The translations under genes and the position numbers were made by a program. This document shows positions 7,673 through 23,331 of a DNA stretch of 32,000 nt, piece by piece (position 1 is the first letter of the stretch; each line of letters starts with the position of its first letter). The notes under the pieces were generated by a model. That model did no database searches and was not told the DNA's origin. It saw only the letters and a list, made by a program, of their open reading frames with translations. Location: positions 1-32,000 of the forward strand of contig NZ_LGHJ01000011.1 in the NCBI RefSeq assembly GCF_001306055.1, written 5' to 3'. The stretch is from Bellilinea caldifistulae (GTDB taxonomy: Bacteria; Chloroflexota; Anaerolineae; Anaerolineales; Anaerolineaceae).

Positions 7673-8497
7673 TCATTGTGACATTGGCACGCTCAAGTTA
7701 ACCATCGGGAAGTACTGTCCTAAATCAACGGCCTCTATTGTTCGAGTGTAATACTCAACCATTCGAATATCAGACCACCGACCCGCAACCTGTACCAATC
7801 GACTCGGCGCGCCTGCCTTGATTGCCATTACTGCAAAAGTTCGCCGAAAATCATGCGGAGAGAGTTTTATACCAATTTTTTCTCCCCAGCGCCGAATGAT
7901 AACCCTCAAACCATCCCTGGTCACCTGGAAAAGCCGCTCGTCTTGCGGATTTCTGTATTCTATCCATTTTTGCAACGCATCTTTGGTCAAAGGTGAAAAG
8001 AAAACCCTTTCCCAACGACCACCTTTTACTCTCACAAGAATCTCTCTCTTCTCAAGAGCCAGGTCTTTCATGTTGATTGTAACAATTTCGTTCACTCTTA
8101 ACCCGGTATCCAAAGCCAGACTTGCAATCGCGAAATCTCGACATCCTTTTGAAGTAGTCAAATCAAATGAAGCGAATAACTCACGGATTTGATGTTCATT
8201 CAGAGTTCTGCCGGGTCTCGTTTTTTCTCTCTTAATACGCACTCGCAAAACTGGATGATCACCAATTTTCCACTTGACAAATTGCCGAATAATTCCGCAG
8301 GCAACATATTGACGAGAATTTCCCCACCCCGTTGAACGAAGAAAGCTTAATAAATCAATTGCAGTGCAAGACTCAATATCTACTCTTTCCAGAAATGCTT
8401 TCAATATTGCCCGATATTGTTCTTCTGTTTTCGAACTGAACCCCTTTTCAGCGAAGAACAATTCCATCTCGGTATGATATTGTGTGAAAGTTGACAT
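7673..8497 (-). CDS. Tyrosine recombinase / phage-type integrase
   Basis: ORF trimmed to MSTFTQYH (GGAGG 7 nt upstream). N-terminal SAM-like core-binding region (EEQYRAILKAF). Catalytic-domain motifs: LDTGLRVNE (Arg I), SPHDFRRTFA (H-x-x-R), GRWSDIRMVEYYTR (catalytic Tyr). Confidence 0.9.
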   Translation of the reverse strand: MSTFTQYHTEMELFFAEKGFSSKTEEQYRAILKAFLERVDIESCTAIDLLSFLRSTGWGNSRQYVACGIIRQFVKWKIGDHPVLRVRIKREKTRPGRTLNEHQIRELFASFDLTTSKGCRDFAIASLALDTGLRVNEIVTINMKDLALEKREILVRVKGGRWERVFFSPLTKDALQKWIEYRNPQDERLFQVTRDGLRVIIRRWGEKIGIKLSPHDFRRTFAVMAIKAGAPSRLVQVAGRWSDIRMVEYYTRTIEAVDLGQYFPMVNLSVPMSQ

Positions 8498-8605
8498 GGT
8501 TTTTCCTCCGCAATGAAGTGGTAATTTTTTGGTTTTACGATTCTGCCACCTCAAAACGGTTCTGAAAATTAAAATTTTTTGCTATACTATTAACCGAAAA
8601 CAAAC

Positions 8606-8701: not shown

Positions 8702-8721
8702 TAGTCTAATATCAGCAATCC

Positions 8722-9732: not shown

Positions 9733-9790
9733 TGTTTGGTTTTGGTTGATGTTCTGCTAAAAAACAGATATATTTAAGCCAGACATAAAT

Positions 9791-9886
9791 CAGCCCCACC
9801 GCTGTCTCGGTGAGGCTGAGGTGCAACGCGGTGAAGGCGCGTTGCGGCAAAAACAAGCATAGCAAACTTTTGCCGCCCGCGCAAGT
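9791..9886 (+). repeat. Copy B of the ~95-nt structured intergenic element (upstream of the R-M/HerA operon)
   Basis: See copy A. Copy B also has perfect hairpins GCAACGCG-N7-CGCGTTGC, GGCAAAA-N15-TTTTGCC and GCCCGCGC-N14-GCGCGGGC. Confidence 0.5.
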
Positions 9887-9960
9887 CAACCGCAACGCGC
9901 GGGCGAATCGTTATCGAGTCTTGAATTTCACAAGTCAAATATCTGCACAGGGAACTTCAA

Positions 9961-11904
9961 ATGGAAGAAACAATTACACTGATACCCCCCGGTAAGATTC
10001 AATGTGTTGTTACAGGTAAACTTCGCCCTGATACACCTGAAGAGAATGTCCGGCAACGCATAGCGCGTAGCCTGTTAGAAGACTACGGCTACGATAAATC
10101 AGACATCGAAATTGAATTTACTGTTAATCTGGGAAGCAGCAAAAAGCGCGTGGATATTGCTATCTTTCCGCCACATGTCGAGCATAAACAAGAGAATATC
10201 AAAATCATTGTGGAGTGCAAACGGGAAGAAGTCCGCCCTACCGACCGAGATAACGGTGTAGGGCAACTCAAATCCTATCTTGCTGCCTGCCCTAATGCTC
10301 GCTTTGGGATGTGGATTGGCTCAGAACTCCAGGTCTGGGAGCGGCTGGTTTCGGATGCGGGAGAAGTATCTTTTGCCGAAGCTACTGACATCCCGCGTTT
10401 TGGATACGATGCCCCACAACCCATACGATTTGATGAACTAGTCCCCGCTCATGAAGAATTAATTGCCATATTCAAGCGTTGCCATAACTACATTTACGGA
10501 AATCAGGGATTACAAAAGGAACCCGCTTTTCAGGAATTGCTTAAGCTCATTTTCTGCAAGGTCTATGATGAAGACACTTCTCTCGGTGAAATGCGCTTTT
10601 TCATCGGCAACAATGAACGGCGTTCCGAAATCGGACAAAGGCGGTTGAAGCAGACAATAGATCAGTTGTTTGAAGACGTGAAAAACCGCTATCCGTATAT
10701 CTTTGCCCGAGATGAACAGATTCGCCTTGACAACCGGGTGCTGGCTTATGTTGTCGGCGAACTTCAACGCTACTCACTTCTGCAGACGCTGGCAGATGTT
10801 AAGGGTGCTGCTTATGAACAACTTGTTGGGAGTAATCTGCGCGGTGACAGAGGTGAATTTTTCACGCCGCGTAATGTCTGCGAAATGGCAACGCAAATGG
10901 CGCTGGCAACCTACCCTCGGGATAAATGGCTGAAACTCCGTATTCTTGACCCTGCTTGCGGAACGGGCGGCTTCTTGGTATCAGTAATGAATGTCTGGCG
11001 CGAATACCTCGAAGAAGTTCAGCGGGTGAAATGGAAAGACGAGAGCAAAGCTCTTGAAGAAACTGCCCGGTTGTTGCGAGAAACGGCTAATCAACACCTC
11101 GTAGGCATAGATTTCAACCCTGTTTTGGTACGGGCTGCGCAGATGAATTTAGTCATGCACGGTGACGGTTCGACCAACGTGTATCATGCTAATTCGCTTT
11201 TGCCCCCCGGAGAGTGGATAGCCGAAGTCGCAAAGCATATTCAACTTGGCACGTTCGATATTGTTATCACCAATCCACCCTTTGGCTCGAAGATCCCAAT
11301 TGATGATCCACATATCCTAGCACAATTTGAGTTGTCGACATTCGAAATGCAAAATGGAACACACCGCGCATCCATGCCACCAGAGCAGCTGTTTATCGAA
11401 CGCTGTCTACAATTTTTAAAACCCGGTGGACGCTTGGCAATCGTACTCCCCGATAGTATTCTCTCCAATCCCGGATTAGCGTTCATCCGCCGCTGGATTC
11501 TTCGGCGGGCCCGGATAATCGCCAGCATAGACCTGCCACAAGCAACTTTTGAACCCTATACAGGCACGCAAACCAGTGTATTACTGCTGCAAAAAAAGAC
11601 GGAAGAGGAAATACGAATTGAGCAGCAAGCAGGCAAGCCATTTGATTACGAGATTTTTATGGCTACACCTGAATTCGTTGGACATGACCGACGCGGCGAG
11701 ACCATTTATTTACGAACCCCTGAAGGCGAACTCATTCAATATGACGGCATTGCTAAGTTTGTCCGTCGCAATCCAAACGGCAAACTGATCACCGAACAAC
11801 GCCAGCAGAAAATGCGTGAAAAGTTTGACCAACTGCCTGAAGTGGTGCGCTACTTCACCGAATGGGTTTCCAAACCTGAACGAATGAGGTGGCTCAATGG
11901 ATGA
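9961..11904 (+). CDS. Fused PD-(D/E)xK nuclease-like domain + gamma-class N6-adenine DNA methyltransferase (type IIB/BcgI-A-like or HsdM-like)
   Basis: N-terminus: KKRVDIAIF...IKIIVECKRE, a D...E-x-K nuclease motif of the HSDR_N type. Methyltransferase motif I ILDPACGTGGFLV and motif IV DIVITNPPFGSKI. Its last 8 nt overlap the S-subunit start. Confidence 0.85.
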   Translation: MEETITLIPPGKIQCVVTGKLRPDTPEENVRQRIARSLLEDYGYDKSDIEIEFTVNLGSSKKRVDIAIFPPHVEHKQENIKIIVECKREEVRPTDRDNGVGQLKSYLAACPNARFGMWIGSELQVWERLVSDAGEVSFAEATDIPRFGYDAPQPIRFDELVPAHEELIAIFKRCHNYIYGNQGLQKEPAFQELLKLIFCKVYDEDTSLGEMRFFIGNNERRSEIGQRRLKQTIDQLFEDVKNRYPYIFARDEQIRLDNRVLAYVVGELQRYSLLQTLADVKGAAYEQLVGSNLRGDRGEFFTPRNVCEMATQMALATYPRDKWLKLRILDPACGTGGFLVSVMNVWREYLEEVQRVKWKDESKALEETARLLRETANQHLVGIDFNPVLVRAAQMNLVMHGDGSTNVYHANSLLPPGEWIAEVAKHIQLGTFDIVITNPPFGSKIPIDDPHILAQFELSTFEMQNGTHRASMPPEQLFIERCLQFLKPGGRLAIVLPDSILSNPGLAFIRRWILRRARIIASIDLPQATFEPYTGTQTSVLLLQKKTEEEIRIEQQAGKPFDYEIFMATPEFVGHDRRGETIYLRTPEGELIQYDGIAKFVRRNPNGKLITEQRQQKMREKFDQLPEVVRYFTEWVSKPERMRWLNG

Positions 11905-13393
11905 GAGAAACGTGCCTATTATCACCCGGGAAGAACTCCGACAGCAATTTATCGAATTGGGGTGGTGGATTTCAATCCCCCTGACTACCGTCCCTGCGCA
12001 CTGGTTGAATCAGGGGGAAAACAGGCTAGACGCAAACTATTATGCCCAGGAAGGCCAATCAGTCTTTAGGATTGTTGCTGATAGTGGATTCCCTTTGAAG
12101 CAATTAGGGGAAATAGCAAAGGCAATATGGTATCCGTCAAGGTTCAAAAGGACGCGAACCGATAGCACAAAAGGGATCCCATTCATTGGCGCTACAGAGA
12201 TCATTCAGTATAGACCGGAGACGAAATACTACATTTCCCCAAACTCAAACACCGAAATAGAAAACCTTATAGCCAAAGAAAACTCCATTTTTGTTACGCG
12301 CTCTGGGTCGGTTGGCAGAATCTCATTTTTCAGTAAAAGACTGCAAGGTAAAGCATTAAGTGAACATGTTATCAGAGTAGAGGTGGATGAAGAATCAGGA
12401 TACGTATATGCTTTTCTGTCTAGTTCTATTGGGCAGGGTTTAATACTACGGAGTGTATTTGGTTCATCCGTTTCTGAGATTGAACCCCACCATCTAGCAA
12501 GTGTCCCTGTACCACTTCCGTCCAAAGACGTTCAGTTAGAAATCCACAATCAGATCATGCGGGCATATGCCCTGCGCGACGAGGCCAATGACTTGCTGGA
12601 TGAAGCTGACAGTCTCTTACACGAGAAGTTAGGGCTGCCTATCTTCGATGAAAGCCTTGTACCCTACCTGCCCGCGCCGACTGCGCCACGCCTGCCTACT
12701 AACCGCCCCGAAATTCCCCATCCCAAAGCGTTTAGCATTTGGGCTTCTGAACTGTCAGATCGTTTTGACGCTTCGTTTCACGTGCCGGTTGCGAGAACGG
12801 TGGTCAAACTTCTGCACGAAGGGAACTTTGCGCCCGTGCAACTGGAAAGCATTGCATCTCACATTTTTATTCCCCCACGTTTCAAGCGTATTTACGTACC
12901 TAAAGAATACGGCGTTCCTTTTCTGCAAGGGTCACATCTGCCACAAATGCGCCCGTATGATCTGAAATACGTCTCGCTAAAAGTAAATGCAAAGCATATT
13001 GACAAATGTCTGATTAGGATTGGATATGTGTTGGCTACTCGTTCTGGTACCATCGGACGGATAGGGTTGGTGTCCTCATATATGGACAAGTGGGCAGCCT
13101 CCGAACACTTGTTGCGCATTGTGCCTGATAACAGCAGGGGACATCCGGGCTATATTGCCGCCTTTTTGATGACGCCTTACGGGCAGCATCAATTGACGGC
13201 AAAAATTTATGGCGGTGTTGTAGATGAATTGACTGAAAGTGATACCGGTGAAGTATGGATACCCAACGCTCCGATGGAGATTCAACAAGAAATTGGTGAG
13301 AAGGTGGTTCAAGCCTTTGAAAAAAAGGATGAAGCCAACGTCATAGAAGAAGCGGCCATCCGTAAGGTTGAAAAATTACTAGAAAATGGCTAA
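11897..13393 (+). CDS. hsdS: Restriction-modification specificity subunit (HsdS-like, two target-recognition domains)
   Basis: Two internally repeated TRD halves: ...FVTRSGSVGRISFFS...SEHVIRVEV...YVYAFLSS..G and ...VLATRSGTIGRIGLVS...SEHLLRIVP...YIAAFLMTPYG. Each is followed by a conserved coiled-coil spacer (RDEANDLLDEA / KKDEANVIEEA). Confidence 0.85.
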   Translation: MDERNVPIITREELRQQFIELGWWISIPLTTVPAHWLNQGENRLDANYYAQEGQSVFRIVADSGFPLKQLGEIAKAIWYPSRFKRTRTDSTKGIPFIGATEIIQYRPETKYYISPNSNTEIENLIAKENSIFVTRSGSVGRISFFSKRLQGKALSEHVIRVEVDEESGYVYAFLSSSIGQGLILRSVFGSSVSEIEPHHLASVPVPLPSKDVQLEIHNQIMRAYALRDEANDLLDEADSLLHEKLGLPIFDESLVPYLPAPTAPRLPTNRPEIPHPKAFSIWASELSDRFDASFHVPVARTVVKLLHEGNFAPVQLESIASHIFIPPRFKRIYVPKEYGVPFLQGSHLPQMRPYDLKYVSLKVNAKHIDKCLIRIGYVLATRSGTIGRIGLVSSYMDKWAASEHLLRIVPDNSRGHPGYIAAFLMTPYGQHQLTAKIYGGVVDELTESDTGEVWIPNAPMEIQQEIGEKVVQAFEKKDEANVIEEAAIRKVEKLLENG

Positions 13394-13420
13394 ACCCTTT
13401 TGGAATCGTGCGACTTAGGT

Positions 13421-14320
13421 ATGAAAAATCGCCCTTACTACTCAATCCGAACGGGTAAACACCCTCACACAAAATACAACCTTGATTTGTTAAGGCGGTT
13501 GTTTATAGAGGTGTATCGTAAATTCGAATGGGATGAGTACTTTCAAGAAGCATTTGGATATAGATGTGTGGATGCTTACAATGGTTGGGTATCAGGCAAT
13601 CTAGGTAGGGACATTGAGGCCATAGTTTTTTTGCATCTTAGAAAAGACTCGCTCTGGCCAATTGAGGAAAACTACATCCACTACTCCGAAGAAGACTTAT
13701 TTGATGTGATTGAGTTTTTATATGATAACGTTTCTAAGCCTGTTGATGGCTTTTATCACGACTACAATAACTGCGGTTGGCATTATAGTTCCTTTGATCA
13801 GAACGCCGGTAAGAAAGAGTTTCGGGAAGCGATTAACTCCATCCTAAAAGATTATAAAAGTGGATATGAGCTCAGTACAGAAGGGGAAATTCTTTCATTG
13901 CCCCAGCACGGATTAGAAGCGTTATTTGAGTCCGAATTACCTCATTATGAATCTGATAATGTTGAAAAGCGATTGGAAACAGCAATAGAAAAGTTCAGAC
14001 GCTATCATGCCACCTGGGATGAAAAAAGAGATGCAATTCGAGACTTAGCAGATGTATTAGAGTACCTTCGCCCGAGATTAAAAGAGGTTCTGAGTTCAAA
14101 AGACGAGAATGATTTGTTCAACCTCGCGAATAATTTTGGTATCCGTCATCATAATGCAAATCAAAAGACCGACTATGATAAAGAGATTTGGTATCCTTGG
14201 TTATTCTACTATTACCTCGCCACAATCCGGGCTTGTATTAGCCTGCTTAGCAAAGCGGGAAATGAAACATCAGAAAAGAGTATGAATGAAGTCTCTACGG
14301 ATGACGGTATTTACTTCTAA
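13421..14320 (+). CDS. Hypothetical protein (299 aa), no domain recognised
   Basis: The ORF track starts at a TTG (13400); I prefer the ATG at 13421 (MKNRPYYSIRTGKHP). Trp/Tyr-rich N-terminal half and a helical, charged C-terminal half. It lies 28 nt after hsdS and 45 nt before the ATPase gene. Confidence 0.6.
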   Translation: MKNRPYYSIRTGKHPHTKYNLDLLRRLFIEVYRKFEWDEYFQEAFGYRCVDAYNGWVSGNLGRDIEAIVFLHLRKDSLWPIEENYIHYSEEDLFDVIEFLYDNVSKPVDGFYHDYNNCGWHYSSFDQNAGKKEFREAINSILKDYKSGYELSTEGEILSLPQHGLEALFESELPHYESDNVEKRLETAIEKFRRYHATWDEKRDAIRDLADVLEYLRPRLKEVLSSKDENDLFNLANNFGIRHHNANQKTDYDKEIWYPWLFYYYLATIRACISLLSKAGNETSEKSMNEVSTDDGIYF

Positions 14321-14364
14321 AAGAGGAAATTTCAAAGTAATTATACGAACAGGAGGATGATGCG

Positions 14365-16071
14365 ATGATCATCGTATTAACAGACCGTCCGGGAAGAGAG
14401 GGGCTGTATGTCACTGCTGTAAAGCAAGAAGGTAGCAGTGATCTCCAATTGTATGATTACGTGCGGATTACTCCCCCAAACACTTCTTATCAAACACCTG
14501 AAAGCAAACGAGAATGGATTGGTCAGATCACACGACCCAATCTCAATGTTTCTATGGTAACCGATAATCCCTTTGATCCATCACTCATTCACGCATTGTA
14601 TCTAACCCAATCCCGATCTGATACGATGATTGAGATGGCCAAAACCATCGAAACTTGGGAAATTCATTTGCTGGGTGAATACGATGGTCATCGCTTAACG
14701 ACTCTGCGGCGCAGGCCGCAACCGGGTTCACGAGTAGAACGATTGGATAGAGAAACCACCCTAAAAGTCCTCGAACTTCCAAAGTACGATGAAAAACAAG
14801 TGAATGCTATTGGCTACTTACTCAATGCGGATGATGTCCCGCTTTGTGTTAACAAAAGTATTTTTCGACATCACATGATGATTAGTGGCGGTACTGGTTC
14901 AGGCAAGTCCAATACCGGTGCCAATTTGGTTTATCAAGCTGCCAGAATAGGCTTCACTGTCTTTCTATATGATGCAAAGCCTGATTACACACTAATTGAT
15001 AAGCCTAATTCAGATGAAAGCGTCAAAGATGTTTGGGATGAAATGAAAAAATACGGCCTGCAGCCCTTTGGAGCTGACAATCTGGTTCGGGTAGCAATCT
15101 ATGGAATCGGTCGCGCCAAGAATCTACACTACAAAGGGTATCAAGCAATTTTAAGTTTCCGCGCTTCTGATTTTGACGCAGAATGGTTGGGATCTTTGTT
15201 CTTTACCGGTAAAGCAGACTATAACCAATATGAAGAATTTGTCAGCGTTTGTAAGGAACTTCGTGAAACCAAAAGAGAGTACAGCCTGAAGGATGTTTTA
15301 GATGTGATTCGTCAACGAAGTGATGGAGACAAAAAGGAAGAAGAGGAAGGGAAGAAAAATTCCAAAAAATCTGAGCGAACCGTTCACAAACAAACAGCAG
15401 ATGCGATCATCCGCAAGGTAGAACGGAAACAAAAAACAATGCCTTGGTTGGACTCGCTAAATCAAGAAGTGAGCGAAGTAACAGAGAAACAAACTCAATT
15501 GCCCTTTGAACAAACGACCGGACTAGCAACAAAACTCAAAACGCAGCCCTATAGGGTAGACAATTTTATCAGCAAAGGCAAGATTGTCTATATTGATCTT
15601 GCTGACGTAGATGCCGACAGTTATGCGCTATTTTTGGGATATTTCTTTCGCGAAAATCAACGATACTTATCTCAAAATCCGCAATTTCGCTCTTTAGGGA
15701 TACTGGAATTCGCTGATGAAGCGCATCGTATCTTTACGAATGACACGCGATACAGCGATTTGCTCGAATTTGAATTCAATCGTACAATGATGGAAGGAAG
15801 ATCGTTAGGACATGGTGTCATTATCAGTTTACAAAACGCCAGTCAGGTCCCATCTAGTATTCTTAACAACATCAATTCTCATATTGTGATGAGACAAAAC
15901 AATCGAGAAGTGGCGAAATTTGCCACACAGACTATGGGAGTTGACTTTGCCGATCAATCAATCAGTCTAGCACCTGGGCAAGCATTATGTCGGATGTTTG
16001 GCTCTACCGCAACAGTTTTAGCCCAAATGGCTCCATCTCCCTATGAATTGGAGAGAAGCGATAATGTTTGA
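14365..16071 (+). CDS. HerA/FtsK-superfamily (DUF87-like) ATPase with N-terminal HAS-barrel-like domain
   Basis: Walker A HHMMISGGTGSGKSNTGANLV. Walker B GILEFADEAHRIF. Sensor-like VIISLQNASQ. The N-terminal ~150 aa has a beta-barrel-like pattern. There is an inserted Lys/Glu-rich segment (DGDKKEEEEGKKNSKKSE). Confidence 0.8.
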   Translation: MIIVLTDRPGREGLYVTAVKQEGSSDLQLYDYVRITPPNTSYQTPESKREWIGQITRPNLNVSMVTDNPFDPSLIHALYLTQSRSDTMIEMAKTIETWEIHLLGEYDGHRLTTLRRRPQPGSRVERLDRETTLKVLELPKYDEKQVNAIGYLLNADDVPLCVNKSIFRHHMMISGGTGSGKSNTGANLVYQAARIGFTVFLYDAKPDYTLIDKPNSDESVKDVWDEMKKYGLQPFGADNLVRVAIYGIGRAKNLHYKGYQAILSFRASDFDAEWLGSLFFTGKADYNQYEEFVSVCKELRETKREYSLKDVLDVIRQRSDGDKKEEEEGKKNSKKSERTVHKQTADAIIRKVERKQKTMPWLDSLNQEVSEVTEKQTQLPFEQTTGLATKLKTQPYRVDNFISKGKIVYIDLADVDADSYALFLGYFFRENQRYLSQNPQFRSLGILEFADEAHRIFTNDTRYSDLLEFEFNRTMMEGRSLGHGVIISLQNASQVPSSILNNINSHIVMRQNNREVAKFATQTMGVDFADQSISLAPGQALCRMFGSTATVLAQMAPSPYELERSDNV

Positions 16072-17500
16072 GAGGCAGATTGTCCCGATAACAAATATCC
16101 GTCTAAATGGTCATTTGCGCACTCCAGAGGCAAGCAAGATCGAAGAAATTGCTGAAAGTATCGCAAAAGTCGGTCTTTTGCATCCCTTAGTCTTGTCAAG
16201 CGATTATTATCTCTTGAGCGGATTACACCGTTTGGAAGCCTTGAAACTGCTAGGGTGGCAGGAAGTTGAATGCAAAATAGCTCCTTTTCCTCACGAAAGC
16301 CCCGAGGCATCTCTCTGTGCCCTGGATGAAAATCTCATGCGTCATTCGTTGACTGCCCTTGAACAAGCGGAGTATCTGCTCAAACGAGATGAGCTCTTAC
16401 GGGCTTTGGGAATGCGCTCTGGGCATGGCGGACAAATCTCTAATCAGAATGCGAGGAAGAACAGCCAAAACGAACCGGCAAATTTTGCCGCTTCGTTTTT
16501 CTCTTCCCAAGACCTGGCCCGAGAAATAGGAATTTCGGAAAGGACATATCGAGATCGTATATCGATTGCACGCAAGCTCAGCCTTGAGGAACGCAATTTG
16601 ATTCGAACAACACCCCTTGCAGACAAACCCGCTTTGTTACTTGAAATTTCCCGCATCCAAGACCCGCAGCGAAGACGAGCTGTTATCGAGATGATGTCGA
16701 AACAGACATCAAATTTATCTGTCCGAGAAGTGATACGCCAATATCGCATCCAAAAAGGCGAAATTCAAGCGGAACTTGACATCATCAAACCATCAAATTG
16801 GTGGACTTTCGGACGTCCCAAATGGCTGCAAGAACAGTTTCCGGGCAGCATCCCCGGCGAGATTTATGCCAATGCACTGTATTATTTTGCCCCCGAGCAG
16901 GGAATTGCTGCTGACGGGATGGCTGGAAGCGGAATGTTACGGCGGGTTTATACGGATCGACATCTTTGGCAAAAAAACCGACAATTGAACTTGGAAATCC
17001 ACCTTTTTGACCTTTTCCCAAAGCAACCGTGGGCTAGCAAATACAGCATTCAAAAACATGACATGACTAAACCGCTTCCTATTCAGGTGGATTGGCTTTT
17101 CATAGACCCGCCCTATTTTCGTACTGCTACAAACTTTTTAGAAGGTGAATTAGCCAAAACGCAAGATTACAACCGATATCGGTCAATAATGAGACAGGTG
17201 ATTGAAGCCGGGCGGGATTCCCTGCGCCCAGGTGGTATCTTCTGCTTGTTGATTGTACCTTATACGAATATCAACGACCCTGAAAATCCTTTTATCGATA
17301 TCCCAGCAGATATGTATCAACTGGGAATTGAAAGCGGCTTCAAAGTTATTTTTCGAGCATATGTTAGCCGTGGTGAACAGCAACGGCGGGCGGCCGGAAT
17401 GATGAACCTCAAAGCAAAGCGTTTGCGGAAAATGTTCGGGGATGTGTGCGAATTGCTCGTGTTTCGGAGAGAGGAGAGAAGTGATGTCCAACCGCTTTGA
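16064..17500 (+). CDS. ParB/Srx-like N-terminal domain fused to an amino (N6A/N4C) DNA methyltransferase
   Basis: Start chosen at MFERQIVPI (ATGTTTGA overlap with the herA-like stop). ParB motif LLHPLVLSSDYYLLSGLHRLEALKLLG. C-terminal AdoMet motif AADGMAGSGM, acidic HLFDL, and catalytic WLFIDPPYF. Confidence 0.8.
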   Translation: MFERQIVPITNIRLNGHLRTPEASKIEEIAESIAKVGLLHPLVLSSDYYLLSGLHRLEALKLLGWQEVECKIAPFPHESPEASLCALDENLMRHSLTALEQAEYLLKRDELLRALGMRSGHGGQISNQNARKNSQNEPANFAASFFSSQDLAREIGISERTYRDRISIARKLSLEERNLIRTTPLADKPALLLEISRIQDPQRRRAVIEMMSKQTSNLSVREVIRQYRIQKGEIQAELDIIKPSNWWTFGRPKWLQEQFPGSIPGEIYANALYYFAPEQGIAADGMAGSGMLRRVYTDRHLWQKNRQLNLEIHLFDLFPKQPWASKYSIQKHDMTKPLPIQVDWLFIDPPYFRTATNFLEGELAKTQDYNRYRSIMRQVIEAGRDSLRPGGIFCLLIVPYTNINDPENPFIDIPADMYQLGIESGFKVIFRAYVSRGEQQRRAAGMMNLKAKRLRKMFGDVCELLVFRREERSDVQPL

Positions 17501-18563
17501 CTTTGAGGGATTGATCAACCGTTCCAAGCGATTTTCCCGCGATGAGTTTGTCGCAAATTTTGGCGGAATTGTGGAAGATGTATCTGCCATGCTGGCAAGT
17601 GACTTATCCCGTAAGGCAATTGCCGAGGCTCGCGAATACATCGAATCCAAAGGTGAAGAGTTATTGCCTAACCAGATGCCACGACTTCAAAGGTATGATT
17701 TTGGAAATTTGGAGTCCGCTTCTGAATTATTAGACGGTAAAGTAGCCGCTGTAGATGGTACCCCTGTTCTGCCACTTCAAAAGTATTCATTTGGTCAGGC
17801 TTTGTGCGTTGGTATAGGTAGCCGTTCGTATGTACGTCCGCTGGAAGATGTTCTACACGGCTATACAACCCAAGCAATAGTTAGGGGACTGTCTCACGAA
17901 AAAAGCGAGGATATGAAAGCCTTTTTCACACAGCTCGAAGAAGAAATTGCTGGCATCTCTCTGACTGCTTACATGAGGTACTTCGAGTCTGTTCATGCGT
18001 TGGAAATCAGCGAGCCATATATCTTCTGTGACGGAACCTTAATCTATCAATGGCTGAGCAACATAGAAATTGGCCGAAATCTATATAAAAAGCTGCTCAA
18101 AGAAAAAAAGGTTATTGGGGTTATCAAGAGCTTGAAAGAGAGTGTTCTTCTTTCTTGGTTGGGACGTGCCCTCAAAAGTGGCGAAGTGTTCTTCGCCCAA
18201 ACCTTTTATGAACATGTCGAGCGACAATCTACGGCACAACAGAGAGAAATTCAATGGCTGAACGACCAGGAATTTGTCCAAGAAGCTAAGCAAATCTGGC
18301 GCGGTGTTTTCAAACCTCGCCAAAAAGCCTTTGGTTTTGAAGTTCATCTGGATCATATAGCTCCAATGTTGCGGATTATGGTTGCTGACTGTCAGATGAA
18401 CCATCTGGGACATGAGATTCCCTTTCTGCTGAATACGGTTGATAAAGAGATTCGCAACTTCTTCAAGAGCAAAGTTTTGCAAACGCAAATTGCAGCCCAA
18501 CTTTCCGACTTATCGGAGAACATTTTTTTTGAAGAAATGGAAGAAAGACTTTTTAGAGAATAA
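17484..18563 (+). CDS. NurA-like nuclease candidate (partner of the HerA-like ATPase)
   Basis: Start at MSNRFDF (GAGGAG upstream; 17-nt overlap with the preceding gene). The motifs KVAAVDGTPVL and PYIFCDGTLIY resemble the two conserved DG(S/T) acidic motifs of NurA domains. It is adjacent to a HerA-type ATPase. The assignment rests on motifs and context only. Confidence 0.45.
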   Translation: MSNRFDFEGLINRSKRFSRDEFVANFGGIVEDVSAMLASDLSRKAIAEAREYIESKGEELLPNQMPRLQRYDFGNLESASELLDGKVAAVDGTPVLPLQKYSFGQALCVGIGSRSYVRPLEDVLHGYTTQAIVRGLSHEKSEDMKAFFTQLEEEIAGISLTAYMRYFESVHALEISEPYIFCDGTLIYQWLSNIEIGRNLYKKLLKEKKVIGVIKSLKESVLLSWLGRALKSGEVFFAQTFYEHVERQSTAQQREIQWLNDQEFVQEAKQIWRGVFKPRQKAFGFEVHLDHIAPMLRIMVADCQMNHLGHEIPFLLNTVDKEIRNFFKSKVLQTQIAAQLSDLSENIFFEEMEERLFRE

Positions 18564-18571
18564 AACAGCAA

Positions 18572-18593
18572 GAGAGGGCTTTTCTGCCCTCTC
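18572..18593 (+). terminator. GC hairpin just after the operon stop (weak terminator)
   Basis: GAGAGGGC-TTTTCT-GCCCTCTC lies 9 nt after the stop. The trailing sequence CTGCTTTCC is only moderately T-rich. Confidence 0.4.
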
Positions 18594-18595
18594 CT

Positions 18596-18628
18596 GCTTT
18601 CCGTAGTTCACGGATACCCTCACGAAGT
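18596..18628 (+). other. Degenerate, inverted partial copy of the 5' half of the neighbouring tRNA
   Basis: GCTTTCCGTAGTTCACGGATACCCTCACGAAGT on the plus strand. Compare the tRNA sense strand (minus strand): GCCTCCGTAGTTCAAGGGATAGAACAGCACCCTCACGAAGT. Exact blocks: CCGTAGTTCA (10 nt), GGATA, ACCCTCACGAAGT (13 nt). Confidence 0.65.
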
Positions 18629-18703: not shown

Positions 18704-18714
18704 CGGCAAGCGGG

Positions 18715-18786
18715 CGCCTCCGGCGGGATTCGAACCCGCATTCACACTTCGTGAGGGTGCTGTTCTATCCCTTGAACTACGGAGGC
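18715..18786 (-). tRNA. tRNA: anticodon CAC (Val) in the canonical register, but with an Arg(ACG)-like body and an atypical anticodon arm
   Basis: Cloverleaf read by eye: acceptor GCCTCCG/CGGAGGC; D-arm GTTC-AAGGGATA-GAAC; anticodon arm GCACC-CTCACGA-AGTGT (C31.A39 mismatch, G37); 4-nt variable loop; T-arm GCGGG-TTCGAAT-CCCGC; discriminator G. CCA is not encoded. Confidence 0.8.
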
Positions 18787-18828
18787 ATGACACTTGCCGA
18801 GGTCACCCTGGGCGGAGTTGCACCGCCC
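18787..18828 (-). repeat. tRNA-proximal copy of the intergenic hairpin module
   Basis: Plus strand: ...CACTTGCCG-AGGTCACCCT-G-GGCGG-AGTTGCA-CCGCC. It has the same order as the modules at 22833-22883 and 24543-24595 (TTGC, TCAC(C)CT, then a stem with loop AGTTGCA). Confidence 0.55.
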
Positions 18829-19978: not shown

Positions 19979-20773
19979 CTAAACCGCTCCGTCCCCAACG
20001 GCGGGCTCTGCCAGCCCGCCGGCGATCTGATTGAACTTCACCAGCAGGTCATCCCGCAGGAAGGTCAAATGCAGATTGCCGTTGCCGTAGCGTTCCCACT
20101 TGAAGTACTCGGTCTCGCCCTTGCGGGCTGAGGACAGGCCGTCTACCAGCGGGCTGCTGTACGAATCGAACGGGAAGGGCTTGCCGTCCAGCAGGTGAAA
20201 GATTTTATCCACCTGAATCAGGTGGCGGCGGGGTCGTGGATAGATGTTCACATAGAAGGGCGTTTCGTGAACCAACCCTTCCAGGATGATTTTCTTCCCC
20301 ACACTCACCCGCCCGTTCTTCTGGTTGGTCTTGTACTCGTCATGCCAGCCTGCTCCGGGGCGAAGGAAGTCAAAGGCTTCGCGAATCATCTCCGCAAAGA
20401 GTTCCTTTGCCGCTCCACCGGCCAGCAGTTCCATGATGGCTTCCTCGCTCGGCTCAGGGATGTTTCTTATCCCCTGCCCGTTGCCTTCCAGAAACTGCTC
20501 GAAGCGTTCCAGCCGAGAGACGGACAAGACCTTTTCCACCCCGCTGGCTCCCAACAAAGCCTGCCAGGTCGAGCGTTTCAACTCCACCAGCCGGTCATCG
20601 CGGAACATGACTGCCCGGTAGGATACTGCCGAGCCAATCCCGGCGTTCTCTGCCGCTTTCAAGACAGCCTCTAACTCCCGGCAGTGGTACTCGATGGCGG
20701 CTTTGGTCTGCCGGTAAGCCGAAAGCACCTCGCTGACCGTGTAGGGTTTTTGGATTTCGCTAAAAACAGACAT
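19979..20773 (-). CDS. Hypothetical protein (264 aa)
   Basis: The listed 327-aa ORF is trimmed to MSVFSEIQKPYTV (GAAGGAGG 7 nt upstream). The removed N-terminal extension translates the structured leader. Any resemblance to DUF4942-type proteins is only a vague recollection. Confidence 0.7.
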   Translation of the reverse strand: MSVFSEIQKPYTVSEVLSAYRQTKAAIEYHCRELEAVLKAAENAGIGSAVSYRAVMFRDDRLVELKRSTWQALLGASGVEKVLSVSRLERFEQFLEGNGQGIRNIPEPSEEAIMELLAGGAAKELFAEMIREAFDFLRPGAGWHDEYKTNQKNGRVSVGKKIILEGLVHETPFYVNIYPRPRRHLIQVDKIFHLLDGKPFPFDSYSSPLVDGLSSARKGETEYFKWERYGNGNLHLTFLRDDLLVKFNQIAGGLAEPAVGDGAV

Positions 20774-20952
20774 GGTTTTCCTCCTTCTCCCGCCGTCTGC
20801 ACCCGGCGGGAAACTGATGTGTTTCCCCCGGTGCAGCGGGGTTGAAGGACGATTGGGACGGTTGCGGTATTCGCCTGTTAAGGTGCGGTGCAAACACCCT
20901 TGCGGGTGGTATTGCCGGATGGCGCAGGCAGGTAGCCTGCGCTTGTTTGAAA

Positions 20953-21360
20953 TCAGGCGCATTTCTTTTCGGCAATCTTTCGGATGGTGTACAGCACTCC
21001 AGAGATGAAGTCCTGGTCATCCCACTCGGCATTGATCCGTTCAACAACCTTGTCCAGCCCGTTTTCAGCCCAATATAGTTGGAACGCTAGAGGCAGCCGG
21101 TTTCGGACAAGACCGTACTGCAAAGCTGAGTAAATGACATACTCTCGTGAAAACGGTATAGAGTTGGCGAGCCGTTTTTCTATTTCTTGCAAGGCTTTCT
21201 CTATGGAGATTTCATGAATCACAATTGTGACAACACCTTTTTCCCGCCTCTCAATGTGAAAGCCGTTTTGCAAGGCTTTTTCTCGCAAGCGAAAACACTC
21301 CCAACCGTCTTTACACTCCTGCATTGACCCGCCATAATATTGAGATTTTCGCATTGCCAT
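20953..21360 (-). CDS. Hypothetical protein (135 aa)
   Basis: AGAGGAGG upstream of the ATG. Balanced composition in a region where spurious frames are Arg/Pro/Ala-rich. Confidence 0.65.
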   Translation of the reverse strand: MAMRKSQYYGGSMQECKDGWECFRLREKALQNGFHIERREKGVVTIVIHEISIEKALQEIEKRLANSIPFSREYVIYSALQYGLVRNRLPLAFQLYWAENGLDKVVERINAEWDDQDFISGVLYTIRKIAEKKCA

Positions 21361-21813
21361 CGTTTTCCTCCTCTGCCCCTGTCCGTGACCAGGGGCGAAT
21401 CTTGTGGATACGCCCCGTCACGGCGGGGAAAAGAGAAGGTTGAGAAAATGCGCCTGATATTCACCTGGTAAGGTTCGGAATGCGTTGTTTGGGCAGCCGC
21501 ATCCCTGCCGTTCCCACGTACGACTTTACCGGTGGTGCATTTGCACTCGCGGAAGTCTCGGCACTATTGTCGGAGCCGTGCCGCCCGGATGTTCCTGTGG
21601 TCGCTCCGGTCTGTCCGGCGTCCCGGTCTTTTGCTATCGCGCTCCTGGCGTGCGCTCACGCACAGCGGATAAGTGCCTAGCAAGTGCGTGGAATGGACTG
21701 GTTAAGGTGCAGTGCCAGATCAATCGCTCCGGCGGGCAGGAATTGGCGGTTAGAGCCGGACTGGGTAAGCCCGGCTCGTCCCCGCAGGGGGGTGCAGATG
21801 ACGGTCAATCGGA

Positions 21814-22626: not shown

Positions 22627-22832
22627 GGTAAAAACCTCCTTCGTGAGATTGTTTCACGCCCCCGTCCGCAGCCGGGGGCAAACGAGTGTGTTGCCCTGCT
22701 GCGTCAGGGGAGTACCTGAACGGCCTCGCTCCACCGCTCACGCTTGACCGTCAGCGGCAGAGGGAGACCGTCCAGGCAGAAGGCTTTACCAGTCCCTGTC
22801 CCTTCGCCCTGCTTGATTGACCGTTTTCACCT

Positions 22833-22883
22833 GTTAATGTGCTGCCCCTTGCGGGGAAATCACCTGCCCGGAGTTGCACCGGG
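22833..22883 (-). repeat. Complete copy of the intergenic hairpin module
   Basis: Plus strand: GTTAATGTGC-TG-CCCC-TTGC-GGGG-AAA-TCACCT-G-CCCGG-AGTTGCA-CCGGG. Confidence 0.6.
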
Positions 22884-22938
22884 TAACCTCGTCAGGTGGA
22901 GTTTTCAGATGGGCAGGGCTGGGTAGCCCTGCCAAGTG

Positions 22939-23214: not shown

Positions 23215-23331
23215 GGCTGTTCTCCTTTCGGGTCAGTGCCGCACCACTGACCCATGTAGGTATGAGTCAGTGGCTGGAGCGGCAGCCCGATGGAGAGAGG
23301 CGAGCGATATAACTTTGTTAAGGTGCGGGAG

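What the first reader, a model, noticed from the sequence alone, without database searches (positions are those of the whole stretch)
13421..18563. Candidate undescribed defence module: unknown protein + HerA-type ATPase + ParB::methyltransferase + NurA-like nuclease, translationally coupled
What the sequence shows:
- Four co-directional genes have minimal or negative spacing: a 45-nt gap, then 8-nt and 17-nt overlaps.
- They encode an unknown 299-aa protein and a HerA/FtsK ATPase (GGTGSGKS, FADEAH).
- They also encode a ParB/Srx domain fused to a DPPY amino-methyltransferase, and a protein with two DG(T) acidic motifs arranged as in NurA.

Established knowledge:
- HerA-NurA is a translocase-nuclease pair, known from archaeal DNA end resection with bacterial homologues.
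- HerA ATPases act as scaffolds in the Sir2-HerA and DUF4297-HerA antiphage systems.
- ParB-fused methyltransferases are typical of mobile DNA.

Inference:
- A HerA/NurA effector pair with its own dedicated methyltransferase would be an R-M-like system. Self DNA would be marked by the ParB-MTase and foreign DNA destroyed by a ring translocase plus nuclease.
- I do not recognise this gene set as BREX, DISARM, Dnd/Ssp, Hma, MADS, Druantia or Zorya.
- Its location supports a defence role: a tRNA-flanked, integrase-bearing, AT-rich island, directly downstream of another R-M system.
Basis: partly seen in the sequence, partly recalled or inferred. Interest (0 to 1): 0.88.

Follow-up and report, generated by a model that had tools for sequence, protein, structure and literature searches.

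The report
HerA–methyltransferase–NurA three-gene DNA-degrading cassette
Three of the four flagged genes form a rare, mobile cassette (ring ATPase, DNA-binding methyltransferase, NurA-type nuclease) that probably marks self DNA and shreds foreign DNA, but its only studied look-alike, in a Thermus mobile element, exports DNA instead.

Summary
The sequence observation holds: the genes, spacings and motifs are as described. The 359-aa protein is NurA-like by fold: AlphaFold2 pLDDT 87, and the top three PDB matches are NurA.

The conserved unit has three genes, not four: HerA (14365-16071), ParB/Noc::DPPY-methyltransferase (16064-17500) and NurA-like (17484-18563).
- This trio recurs in Chloroflexota relatives, Cyanobacteria, Poribacteria, Armatimonadota and two temperate-phage contigs.
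- Gene order varies, and other methyltransferase classes sometimes stand in.
- The 299-aa protein never accompanies it. It belongs to a large stand-alone family (PADLOC candidate PDC-S32).
- The upstream M+S pair (MAD2/MAD5-like, nuclease motif intact) is also unique to this genome.

No PADLOC model matches the NurA-like protein, and no paper I found names the trio.

Best reading (about 0.45): a restriction-modification-like module with a HerA-NurA degradative arm. The main rival is the Thermus ICETh1 "DNA secretion" operon (type IIG R-M, NurA, TdtA, methylase), which needs these functions for DNA donation. Phage recombination-module contexts and one methyltransferase-less Poribacteria clade also weaken a strict R-M model.

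Verdict: a new variant of a known kind; defence function unproven.

The parts
14365..16071 (+). HerA/FtsK-family hexameric ATPase (568 aa). First gene of the conserved cassette.
   Evidence: Pfam DUF87 E 6e-17. PADLOC HerA 1e-16 and mad8 3e-14. PDB sequence hit to Sulfolobus HerA 4d2i, E 7e-10. Across 19 homologues the Walker A residues G175-G180-K181-S182, the Walker B residues D451-E452 and R479 are invariant. The gene is adjacent to the NurA-like gene in nearly all complete loci.
16064..17500 (+). ParB/Noc-like N-domain plus HTH, fused to a (D)PPY amino-methyltransferase (478 aa). Second gene of the cassette. It overlaps HerA by 8 nt.
   Evidence: NCBIfam Noc E 1.5e-11. AF2 pLDDT 82. Foldseek matches residues about 1-230 to Noc/ParB 7nfu at E 7.6e-10, and the C-terminal half to class I SAM methyltransferases including Trm11 and PrmC. 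Invariant residues are D284, M286-A-G-S-G-M291, D316, D348, P349 and Y351; P350 is replaced by serine in a few members. The N-terminal half is swapped or fast-evolving between clades, while the methyltransferase core is conserved.
17484..18563 (+). Divergent NurA-like RNase-H-fold nuclease (359 aa). Third gene of the cassette. It overlaps the methyltransferase gene by 17 nt.
   Evidence: AF2 pLDDT 86.9. The top three Foldseek PDB hits are NurA: 2ygk at E 2.6e-7 with TM 0.49/0.54, then 3tal and 3taz. PIWI domains and TM1739 follow. 18 of 39 family members hit Pfam NurA, best E 4.6e-7. D91, E168, H171, D183, E286, D302 and E311 are invariant. No PDB sequence hit even at E 10.
18567..18598 (.). 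13-bp G+C-rich hairpin immediately after the NurA-like stop codon. It marks the end of the cassette transcript and/or acts as the terminator of the convergent tRNA-Val.
   Evidence: Terminator scan; sequence read.
13421..14320 (+). NEIGHBOUR, not part of the cassette: a 299-aa protein like PADLOC candidate PDC-S32 and Pfam AbiJ_NTD4.
   Evidence: PADLOC PDC-S32 E 9e-15. Pfam AbiJ_NTD4 E 1e-4. At least 2100 homologues. In three contexts inspected it stands alone among unrelated genes. It is absent next to the cassette in all other loci.
9961..13393 (+). NEIGHBOUR: a two-gene R-M-type unit. The first protein (647 aa) joins an N-terminal PD-(D/E)XK domain (HSDR_N_2, with the motifs VDIAIF and VECK) to an N6-adenine methyltransferase. 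The second is an S subunit (498 aa). They are MAD2- and MAD5-like.
   Evidence: Pfam. NCBIfam MAD2 605.5 bits against a cut-off of 720, and MAD5 381 bits against 400. PADLOC MTase_II E 7e-145 and mad5 E 7.5e-35. Not found beside the cassette elsewhere.
7673..8554 (-). CONTEXT: tyrosine recombinase (integrase) at the left end of the low-GC island.
   Evidence: Pfam Phage_integrase E 7e-27.
18712..18787 (-). CONTEXT: tRNA-Val(CAC) at the right edge of the island.
   Evidence: ARAGORN. No second copy of its 3' end exists in the window.

Best explanation
The feature is a self-contained, horizontally mobile three-gene cassette: a HerA ATPase, a methyltransferase with a DNA-binding head, and a NurA-like nuclease.

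Proposed mechanism:
- HerA forms a hexameric ring translocase, and the NurA-like protein docks on it. This step is inferred by analogy with solved archaeal and Deinococcus HerA-NurA complexes.
- Together they thread and degrade double-stranded DNA in an ATP-dependent way, starting from free ends or nicks.
- The third protein is a catalytically intact (D)PPY amino-methyltransferase. In this clade its exchangeable DNA-binding head is a ParB/Noc N-domain plus HTH. It methylates resident DNA.
- That mark, or occupancy by the methyltransferase, spares self DNA. Unmarked incoming DNA (phage, plasmid, or fragments released by the neighbouring R-M enzyme) is destroyed.

The result is an R-M-like defence or exclusion module. 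A ring translocase plus an RNase-H-fold nuclease take the place of the SF2-helicase/PD-(D/E)XK restriction subunit.

Shown here: the gene content, the folds, the conserved catalytic motifs, and the conserved linkage across phyla, gene orders and methyltransferase classes.

Inferred: complex formation, DNA as the methylation substrate, protection by methylation, and the defence phenotype.

The 299-aa gene and the M+S pair are separate neighbours in a composite island.
For: 1. Linkage.
- HerA and the NurA-like gene are adjacent in nearly all complete loci.
- The A2-family methyltransferase gene lies between them in about 17 GTDB loci and in all close relatives.
- It is also present in other gene orders: MT-HerA-NurA in L029 and NurA-HerA-MT in L054, where the A2 profile scores E 2.7e-46.

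2. Other methyltransferase classes occupy the same place.
- A PF01555 methyltransferase, with a BsaWI-type endonuclease, in L052.
- A methyltransferase in L053.
- A D12-class Dam methyltransferase in L051.
- This points to DNA methylation as the linked function.

3. Catalytic residues are intact.
- Methyltransferase motifs I and IV.
- HerA Walker A, Walker B and an arginine.
- NurA-like D/E/D/H residues.
- NurA fold.

4. The methyltransferase N-terminal half behaves like a specificity module. Identity there is 13% between clades and 29-37% within the non-ParB clade, against 63-81% for the methyltransferase core. In the window protein it folds as Noc/ParB plus HTH.

5. The family is rare and patchy. 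There are 178 homologues among 5.8e9 proteins and 153 hits among 1.84e9 representatives, spread over unrelated phyla. That is typical of accessory, horizontally transferred genes.

6. Defence or mobile-element neighbours occur in several loci.
- The window: R-M unit, PDC-S32-like gene, integrase.
- L038: integrase, a type III-like R-M pair, HEPN AbiU2.
- L040: DISARM-like genes.
- L056: type I R-M.
- L055: CRISPR-Cas.
- Single hits to Lamassu, PDC-M19, PDC-M44 and toxin-antitoxin genes.

7. Recent biochemistry shows that archaeal HerA-NurA digests both strands from DNA ends. Its authors suggest an antiviral role (PMC12977600).
Against: - One monophyletic Poribacteria clade (10 species-level genomes in the tree) keeps HerA-NurA with intact catalytic residues but no methyltransferase. 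There the pair sits among housekeeping genes, in some genomes inside an ABC-transporter operon. The nuclease is therefore tolerated without this methylase, which a strict R-M logic does not predict.
- Most immediate neighbours in other genomes are housekeeping genes.
- In two temperate-phage contigs the pair lies in the replication/recombination module.
- In the only experimentally studied operon with the same inventory (ICETh1), NurA and TdtA are needed for DNA donation, and deleting the methylase has minor effects (PMC5365140, PMC7767461).
- Nothing identifies a reader of the methyl mark in HerA or NurA.
- The nearest solved folds for the methyltransferase domain are not DNA methyltransferases.
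- No phenotype or methylome data exist.
Confidence: 0.45

Rival explanations
1. It is a DNA-mobilisation ("DNA secretion" or transjugation-like) module of an integrative element, as in Thermus thermophilus ICETh1. An R-M-type enzyme nicks or cuts DNA, NurA trims it, and the HerA-family ring ATPase pumps it out of the donor. The methylase plays a minor or protective part.
For: The window island has the same inventory as ICETh1.
- Tyrosine integrase.
- An R-M enzyme with a fused nuclease and N6-methyltransferase.
- A 568-aa HerA-family ATPase. TdtA is also 568 aa.
- A NurA-like nuclease.
- A methylase with PF01555 affinity.
- A flanking tRNA gene.
- Lower GC than the surrounding genome (PMC5365140; PMC7767461).

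L054 has the ICETh1 gene order, NurA-HerA-MT. In ICETh1 the functions of NurA, TdtA and the R-M enzyme were shown genetically.
Against: - In every other locus the cassette lacks the R-M enzyme, and it usually lacks an integrase.
- No attL/attR repeat of the tRNA was found.
- There are no tblastn hits in 72,556 plasmids.
- Family-level homology to TTC1878-1880 could not be tested. The ICETh1 proteins are described as ordinary NurA and HerA relatives (31% identity to HepA), whereas this family is very divergent.
- Nothing suggests membrane association.
Confidence: 0.2
2. It is a DNA end-processing module that serves a mobile element's or phage's own replication and recombination, or the host's break repair. 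HerA-NurA resects or trims ends. The methyltransferase is an ordinary anti-restriction methylase of mobile DNA that happens to be linked.
For: - In the IMG/VR contig L051 the pair lies in one tight block: Sak4 annealing protein, DUF2800 exonuclease, HerA, NurA, Dam. A primase and a ParB-methyltransferase lie further downstream.
- In L050 it lies between a ParB-like methyltransferase and virion genes, with DnaB upstream.
- Canonical HerA-NurA is classically assigned to end resection.
- ParB-fused methylases are common in phages (phrog_498 and phrog_620 hits).
- The methyltransferase-less Poribacteria clade looks domesticated.
Against: - There are no hits among 50,697 GenBank phage records, and no significant match in the viral fold library.
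- Most loci have no phage genes nearby.
- The methyltransferase is family-specific and co-inherited with the pair across gene-order changes. That is more than casual linkage.
- The distribution is too rare and patchy for a repair function.
- Phages often carry defence or exclusion cassettes in such positions.
Confidence: 0.15
3. All six co-directional genes (9961-18563) form one MADS-like system. M and S (MAD2 and MAD5) supply methylation and specificity. HerA (Mad8-like), NurA, the ParB-methyltransferase and the 299-aa protein form the restriction arm.
For: - Spacing is tight throughout: an 8-nt overlap between M and S, then a 27-nt gap, a 44-nt gap, and overlaps of 8 nt and 17 nt.
- The MAD2 and MAD5 models score just below their cut-offs.
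- HerA hits the PADLOC mad8 model at E 3e-14.
- MADS is reported to have incomplete or variant forms.
Against: - No relative of M, S or the 299-aa protein lies beside the cassette in any of about 45 other loci, including 94%- and 75%-identical ones.
- There is no kinase (MAD6), DptG-like protein (MAD7), OLD-type protein (MAD3) or DUF4276 protein (MAD4). The published model makes MAD6, MAD7 and MAD8 mandatory.
- HerA scores as well or better against generic HerA models.
- The M protein keeps its own PD-(D/E)XK motif, so the pair can be a complete R-M unit.
Confidence: 0.07

Closest known systems
Thermus thermophilus ICETh1 "DNA secretion system" operon: TthHB27I/Tth111II type IIG R-M, NurA-like TTC1878, TdtA TTC1879 and the PF01555 methylase TTC1880 (PMC5365140, PMC7767461)
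   Same: - The protein inventory matches: HerA/FtsK-family ATPase (568 aa in both), NurA-like nuclease of about 360-377 aa, and a methylase of about 400 aa with PF01555 affinity.
- Both lie next to an R-M enzyme with a fused nuclease and methyltransferase, and next to a tyrosine integrase.
- Both flank a tRNA gene in a lower-GC island.
- The ICETh1 gene order, NurA-ATPase-methylase, recurs in a distant member of this family (L054).
   Different: - The gene order here is HerA-MT-NurA.
- The methyltransferase carries a ParB/Noc head.
- The R-M neighbour is of M+S type and occurs only in this genome.
- The NurA-like and HerA proteins here are far more divergent from canonical NurA and HerA.
- Sequence homology to TTC1878-1880 could not be tested.
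- The demonstrated ICETh1 function is DNA donation, not defence.
Archaeal and Deinococcus HerA-NurA translocase-nuclease complex
   Same: - A HerA ATPase paired with, and translationally coupled to, a NurA-fold nuclease.
- The Walker motifs and the RNase-H-type acidic residues are conserved.
- The best fold matches are NurA structures 2ygk and 3tal.
- HerA's best PDB sequence hit is 4d2i.
   Different: - There is no Mre11-Rad50 linkage.
- The NurA-like family does not merge with canonical NurA, either in an exhaustive profile search (153 hits) or in a PDB sequence search (0 hits).
- A dedicated methyltransferase is present.
- The distribution is patchy and mobile.
HerA-scaffolded antiphage systems (Sir2-HerA, DUF4297-HerA) and the "HerA/FtsK capture systems" concept (PMC10853773, PMC12839542)
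   Same: - A HerA-family ATPase is paired with an effector enzyme in a small mobile operon.
- PADLOC HerA models match at E 1e-16.
- The concept is a ring translocase that feeds invader DNA to a nuclease.
   Different: - The effector here is NurA-like, not Sir2 or a Cap4-type nuclease.
- A methyltransferase is added.
- Neither of the two comparative papers mentions NurA.
MADS (methylation-associated defence system)
   Same: - The neighbouring M and S proteins are MAD2- and MAD5-like.
- HerA resembles Mad8 weakly.
   Different: - MAD1, 3, 4, 6 and 7 are absent.
- M and S do not travel with the cassette.
ATP-dependent R-M systems (types I and III) as a functional analogue
   Same: - The proposed logic is the same: a methyltransferase with a variable DNA-recognition module, an ATP-driven DNA translocase, and a nuclease.
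   Different: - The motor is a hexameric RecA-fold ring rather than an SF2 helicase.
- The nuclease has an RNase-H fold rather than a PD-(D/E)XK fold.
- No S subunit or recognisable TRD is present.
- Dependence on methylation has not been demonstrated.

Membership tests
NurA nuclease family (Pfam PF09376) | The sequence matches the family model above the curated threshold. | tested here: inconclusive
   The window protein scores 20.3 bits against a cut-off of 21, E 4e-4. 18 of 39 family members match at E <= 0.01, best 4.6e-7. A profile search finds no PDB sequence match even at E 10.
NurA nuclease family (Pfam PF09376) | RNase-H-like NurA fold. | tested here: met
   AF2 pLDDT 86.9, pTM 0.83. 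Foldseek ranks 1-3 are NurA 2ygk, 3tal and 3taz, E 2.6e-7 to 4.6e-5, TM about 0.5.
NurA nuclease family (Pfam PF09376) | Conserved metal-binding D / E / D / (H or D) residues on the core strands and helices. | tested here: met
   D91 lies on the first core strand, E168 and H171 on a helix, and D183 at a strand end. D302, H310 and E311 lie near the C-terminus. All are invariant or nearly so in 39 sequences. Their spatial arrangement was not measured.
NurA nuclease family (Pfam PF09376) | Operon partner is a HerA ATPase. | tested here: met
   Adjacent HerA in nearly all complete loci.
HerA/FtsK ATPases | DUF87/HerA central domain with Walker A, Walker B and an arginine finger. | tested here: met
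   Pfam DUF87 E 6e-17, above its cut-off. GxxGSGKS, DE and R479 are invariant. Hexamer formation was not tested.
ParB/Srx (ParB N-terminal) domain | ParB N-domain fold with the GxxR and ENxxR motifs, followed by an HTH. | tested here: met
   Foldseek match to Noc 7nfu at E 7.6e-10, TM 0.66 on the target. NCBIfam Noc E 1.5e-11. The sequence shows SGLHRLEA and DENLMR. The Pfam hit is below its cut-off. CTP binding was not tested. The domain is present only in the window's clade of the methyltransferase family.
Amino (N6-A / N4-C) DNA methyltransferases | SAM-binding motif I and catalytic (S/N/D)PP(Y/F/W) motif IV on a Rossmann fold. | tested here: met
   D-x-MAGSGM and DPPY are invariant or nearly so. 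A few cyanobacterial members have DPSY. The fold is a class I methyltransferase. The Pfam N6_N4_Mtase hit is below its cut-off.
Amino (N6-A / N4-C) DNA methyltransferases | DNA is the substrate and a defined sequence motif is methylated. | not testable with these tools
   Support is indirect only: the fused DNA-binding head, and replacement by Dam-type or PF01555 methyltransferases in related loci. The nearest solved folds include RNA and protein methyltransferases.
MADS | MAD6 (kinase), MAD7 (DptG-like) and MAD8 (HerA-like) are mandatory in the published model. | tested here: not met
   The operon has no kinase and no DptG-like protein. There is only a weak mad8-type hit for HerA.
MADS | MAD2 methyltransferase and MAD5 specificity subunit. 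| tested here: inconclusive
   NCBIfam MAD2 scores 605.5 bits against a cut-off of 720, and MAD5 381.1 against 400. Both matches are full length but below the cut-offs.
ICETh1-type DNA secretion operon | Co-transcribed R-M enzyme, NurA-like nuclease, TdtA-type HerA/FtsK ATPase and a PF01555 methylase, on an integrase-bearing element in a tRNA gene. | tested here: inconclusive
   All components are present in the window. However, the order differs, an unrelated gene intervenes, no att repeats were found, and the R-M unit is not conserved with the cassette.
ICETh1-type DNA secretion operon | Sequence homology to TTC1878, TTC1879 and TTC1880. | not testable with these tools
Known antiphage systems in PADLOC-DB v2.0.0 | All cassette proteins match the models of one named system. 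| tested here: not met
   NurA-like: 0 hits. Methyltransferase: only weak generic MTase_II hits. HerA: generic HerA models. DefenseFinder and later model sets are not available here.

The most novel reading that the evidence does not exclude
This would be a previously unrecognised class of methylation-based immunity.
- The restriction arm is a HerA hexameric ring translocase coupled to a NurA RNase-H-fold nuclease, instead of an SF2 helicase with a PD-(D/E)XK nuclease.
- The modification and recognition arm is a methyltransferase carrying an exchangeable DNA-binding head.
- In the Bellilinea clade that head is a ParB/Noc-type domain. It may be a CTP-gated clamp that loads on DNA and spreads, so that "self" could be marked regionally rather than at short motifs.

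If true, this would also give the long-debated HerA-NurA pair a defined antiviral role.
Probability: 0.3. Interest if true: 0.85.

Novelty: new variant of a known kind. Interest (0 to 1): 0.62.

Why it matters
Whether HerA-NurA is a repair machine or a defence machine is an open question. A 2026 study of the Thermococcus complex argues against end resection and for an antiviral role, without proof (PMC12977600).

This cassette is a compact, portable HerA-NurA unit of about 4.2 kb with its own methyltransferase. It recurs across phyla, gene orders and methyltransferase classes. That makes the question directly testable:
- clone the three genes;
- read the methylome;
- challenge with phage and plasmid;
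- mutate the Walker A lysine, the DPPY motif and the NurA aspartates.

If it restricts DNA, it adds a new motor-nuclease architecture to R-M-like immunity. It would also invite re-reading the Thermus ICETh1 "DNA secretion" operon as a related system. If instead it promotes DNA export, it extends transjugation-type machinery to Chloroflexota, Cyanobacteria, Poribacteria and phages.

Tried and rejected
- Four-gene module. Rejected: the 299-aa gene is never linked elsewhere. Its family is large and stand-alone.
- Six-gene MADS-like operon. Rejected on comparative grounds and for missing MAD3, 4, 6 and 7.
- Named system in PADLOC. None matches the NurA-like protein or the trio.
- Island borders. 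No direct repeat of the tRNA-Val 3' end was found, and the only 17-nt repeat is probably chance.
- Promoter and terminator scan. Counts are near shuffle expectation. Only the hairpin after the NurA-like gene is notable.
- Sequence-level link to solved structures. There was none for the methyltransferase profile or the NurA-like profile. Folds were needed.
- Plasmid or phage origin. tblastn found no NurA-like or HerA hits in PLSDB or the GenBank phage records. The methyltransferase query matched only ParB-domain genes on plasmids. The viral fold library gave nothing significant. IMG/VR gave two phage-like loci.
- Neighbour enrichment for defence genes. A batch PADLOC and Pfam scan of 116 and 111 flanking ORFs gave only a minority of defence hits. 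The mad3 and mad8 "hits" there most likely come from ABC-transporter ATPases.
- Direct test against ICETh1 proteins. Not possible. Literature and cluster look-ups did not yield the sequences.
- Literature. Searches for NurA with defence, methylase or ParB found no description of this trio.

Full report
**Source and observation.**
- The window comes from Bellilinea caldifistulae (Chloroflexota). The NurA-like protein and the 299-aa protein are 100% identical to BECAL_03384 and BECAL_03381.
- The spacings are a 44-nt gap (with AGGAGG before the HerA ATG), then overlaps of 8 nt and 17 nt.
- The quoted motifs are all present.
- Context is as described. tRNA-Val(CAC) lies at 18712-18787 on the minus strand. 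An integrase lies at 7673-8554 on the minus strand. GC is 0.41-0.49 across 10-19 kb, against 0.55-0.60 downstream of 19 kb.

**What the proteins are: HerA and the methyltransferase.**
- HerA has Pfam DUF87 at E 6e-17 and matches PADLOC HerA models at E 1e-16. Its nearest solved sequence is Sulfolobus HerA 4d2i. Walker A, Walker B and an arginine are invariant in 19 homologues.
- The 478-aa protein gives only sub-threshold Pfam hits to ParB_N and N6_N4_Mtase.
- Its AlphaFold2 model (pLDDT 82) matches Noc/ParB over the N-terminal domain plus HTH (7nfu, E 7.6e-10). It matches class I SAM methyltransferases over the C-terminal half, including the (D/N)PPY enzymes Trm11 and PrmC.
- Motif I (D-x-MAGSGM) precedes motif IV (DPPY). 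Both are conserved across the family.

**What the proteins are: the NurA-like protein.**
- It is very divergent. Pfam NurA scores 20.3 bits against a cut-off of 21.
- 18 of 39 relatives match Pfam NurA at E <= 0.01.
- No PDB sequence hit appears even at E 10.
- Its model (pLDDT 86.9) has NurA structures as its three best PDB fold matches: 2ygk at E 2.6e-7, then 3tal and 3taz. PIWI domains and TM1739 follow.
- D91, E168, H171, D183, E286, D302 and E311 are invariant.

**Which genes belong together.**
- A scan of one genome per GTDB species with the NurA-like profile returned 37 loci.
- tblastn and ORF clustering show HerA adjacent to the NurA-like gene in nearly all complete loci. The methyltransferase gene lies between them in about 17.
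- Closer relatives from assemblies (94%, 75% and 59% identity) all carry the same HerA-MT-NurA trio.
- Not one locus has a relative of the 299-aa protein, or of the upstream M and S genes, next to the cassette. This includes the 94%-identical relative.
- The 299-aa protein matches PADLOC candidate PDC-S32 (E 9e-15) and, weakly, AbiJ_NTD4. It has at least 2100 homologues. In three inspected contexts it is a lone gene among unrelated neighbours.
- The unit is therefore three genes. The window shows a composite island: integrase, a secreted SNase-type nuclease, an M+S unit, the PDC-S32-like gene, the cassette, then the tRNA.

**Depth of the methyltransferase link.**
- Remote members of the NurA-like family were found by an exhaustive profile search of 1.84e9 representatives, which gave only 153 hits. 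They again sit beside HerA and a methyltransferase, but in other arrangements.
- L054 has NurA-HerA-MT, with the same methyltransferase family (A2 profile E 2.7e-46).
- L053 has MT-NurA-HerA.
- L052 has a PF01555 methyltransferase, a BsaWI-type endonuclease, then NurA and HerA.
- L029 (Microcystis) has MT-HerA-NurA.
- The phage-like L051 has HerA-NurA followed by a D12-class Dam methyltransferase.
- Within the methyltransferase family only the window's clade has the ParB head. The other clades have an unrelated N-terminal region. Identity there is 13% between clades and 29-37% within the non-ParB clade, against 63-81% in the catalytic part. This is what one expects of an exchangeable DNA-recognition module on a conserved catalytic core.
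- The loci without a methyltransferase form one monophyletic Poribacteria clade nested among methyltransferase-bearing lineages. There the pair is embedded among housekeeping genes, in some genomes inside a Bmp/ABC-transporter operon. The methyltransferase is therefore ancestral and was lost once. HerA-NurA evidently persists without it.

**Genomic company.**
- Defence or mobile neighbours occur in several loci:
  - the window itself;
  - L038 (integrase, Dam, a large N6_N4 methyltransferase with a ResIII helicase, an SMC-like ATPase, HEPN AbiU2);
  - L040 (DISARM-like helicases and methyltransferase);
  - L056 (a complete type I R-M);
  - L055 (archaeal CRISPR-Cas genes);
  - single hits to Lamassu, PDC-M19, PDC-M44, PD-Lambda-2, PD-T4-6 and toxin-antitoxin genes.
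- Most flanking genes in the GTDB loci are nevertheless ordinary metabolic or transport genes.
- No relatives were found in 72,556 plasmids or 50,697 GenBank phage records.
- IMG/VR holds two loci that look like real temperate phages. L051 has an integrase, a Sak4 annealing protein, a DUF2800 exonuclease, HerA, NurA, Dam, a primase and a ParB-methyltransferase. L050 has DnaB, a DUF5131-methyltransferase, a ParB-like methyltransferase, HerA, NurA and an internal virion protein.

**The upstream pair and MADS.**
- The 647-aa protein joins an HSDR_N_2 PD-(D/E)XK domain to an N6-adenine methyltransferase. The motifs VDIAIF and VECK can be read directly in the sequence. The 498-aa protein is an S subunit.
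- NCBIfam places them just under the MAD2 and MAD5 cut-offs, at 605 against 720 and 381 against 400.
- Canonical MADS also needs an OLD-type ATPase, a DUF4276 protein, a kinase, a DptG-like protein and a HerA-like Mad8. MAD6, MAD7 and MAD8 are mandatory in the published model.
- None of these is present except for a weak mad8-type similarity of HerA. M and S do not co-occur with the cassette elsewhere.
- I treat the pair as a separate unit that may be self-sufficient as an R-M system.

**Literature.**
- I found no paper describing a HerA, methyltransferase and NurA defence trio.
- The two comparative surveys of HerA/FtsK "capture systems" do not mention NurA.
- The closest described system is the Thermus thermophilus ICETh1 operon. 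It encodes the type IIG R-M enzyme TthHB27I/Tth111II, a NurA-like protein (377 aa), TdtA (a HerA/FtsK-family hexameric ATPase of 568 aa) and a 410-aa PF01555 methylase.
- That operon lies beside an integrase in a lower-GC element inserted in a tRNA gene. NurA, TdtA and the R-M enzyme are required for DNA donation ("transjugation"). The methylase has minor effects.
- The inventory parallels the window island closely. I could not obtain the Thermus sequences, so family-level homology is untested.
- Separately, a 2026 study shows that Thermococcus HerA-NurA digests both strands from DNA ends. Its authors suggest an antiviral rather than a resection role.

**Mechanism.**
- Shown: three conserved, translationally coupled genes encode an apparently active ring ATPase, an apparently active amino-methyltransferase with a DNA-binding head, and a NurA-fold nuclease with conserved catalytic residues. 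Their linkage survives gene-order changes and substitution of the methyltransferase class.
- Inferred: HerA6-NurA2 assembles as in the solved complexes and processively degrades DNA entered from ends or nicks. The methyltransferase marks resident DNA, or reads unmarked DNA, so that degradation is directed at incoming DNA.
- Circular chromosomes lack ends. That could explain why the methyltransferase-less Poribacteria pair is tolerated.
- I put this R-M-like defence or exclusion reading at about 0.45.
- Rivals: an ICETh1-like DNA-export module at about 0.20, an end-processing role for a mobile element or in repair at about 0.15, and a six-gene MADS-like system at about 0.07. The remainder is unassigned.

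**Verdict.**
- The feature is real, rare, conserved and unnamed as a defence system. But it has three genes rather than four, it has an experimentally studied compositional analogue with a different assigned function, and its defence role is not demonstrated.
- I rate it a new variant of a known kind, with interest 0.62.

Noticed in passing
window 13421-14320: The 299-aa protein belongs to a large (at least 2100 homologues), well conserved (about 60% identity), roughly 283-aa family. It matches PADLOC candidate PDC-S32 and, weakly, AbiJ_NTD4. In three other genomes it stands alone among unrelated genes. It looks like an independent single-gene candidate defence gene.
   Followed up: partly
window 9961-13393: An M+S pair scores just under the NCBIfam MAD2 and MAD5 cut-offs, but no other MADS gene is present. 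M carries an intact-looking N-terminal PD-(D/E)XK motif. This may be a minimal two-gene R-M form (type IIB or IIG-like) of the MADS methylation core.
   Followed up: partly
window 8722-9732: A protein with a membrane anchor or signal sequence and a long Pro/Thr-rich linker, followed by a staphylococcal-nuclease domain and a C-terminal Excalibur motif. It sits between the integrase and the R-M unit and looks like a secreted or surface nuclease.
   Followed up: no
window 19979-26667: Beyond the tRNA lies a higher-GC (0.56-0.60) block of minus-strand genes. It contains a DUF4942 protein (19979-20962), several ORFs with no family match, and a second tyrosine integrase (25849-26667). This is probably another integrated element at the same tRNA hotspot. 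An rve-type integrase or transposase lies at 6057-7337.
   Followed up: no
L016, L017, L024, L030 (Poribacteria), about 7300-12600: The methyltransferase-less HerA-NurA pair is inserted between a Bmp-family substrate-binding protein gene and the ABC ATPase gene of the same transporter operon. All methyltransferase-less loci form one clade, which indicates a single loss followed by vertical persistence.
   Followed up: partly
L051 5197-10072 and L050 4229-8788 (IMG/VR contigs): Temperate-phage-like contigs carry HerA-NurA inside their replication/recombination modules, next to Dam or ParB-fused methyltransferases. In L051 the order is Sak4, DUF2800 exonuclease, HerA, NurA, Dam.
   Followed up: partly
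L055 1068-8742: A distant archaeal (Thermofilum-like) NurA-like/HerA pair lies directly beside CRISPR-Cas genes: a Cas_APE2256 (CARF) protein, Csa3-like, Cas6 and Cas2. This echoes the nurA-csm6-herA clusters reported in Pyrobaculum.
   Followed up: no
L006 4845-6817 and L012 235-2144 (Poribacteria): Immediately upstream of the three-gene cassette lies a conserved pair: a SAM-methyltransferase-like protein (PADLOC 'C3a159 methyl transferase') and an AlkB-type 2OG-Fe(II) oxygenase. A dioxygenase that could remove alkyl or methyl groups, sitting next to a methylation-linked nuclease cassette, is curious.
   Followed up: no
alignment A2 (P0209, P0214, P0221, P0235): Several cyanobacterial members of the methyltransferase family have DPSY instead of DPPY in motif IV, while keeping motif I. 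They may have altered or reduced catalytic activity.
   Followed up: no
L038 / L039 (GCA_038873835.1, GCA_038871735.1): The 75%-identical cassette sits in MAGs labelled Candidatus Micrarchaeaceae (archaea), yet it is closest to a Chloroflexota sequence. This suggests either recent inter-domain transfer or a binning artefact.
   Followed up: no
L001 112-1104 (-) and 11945-12937 (+): Two copies of the same 330-aa ORF, in inverted orientation, flank the cassette in Gloeomargaritales. A PemK toxin gene and a DUF433/DUF5615 pair lie in between. This may be a composite-transposon-like arrangement.
   Followed up: no
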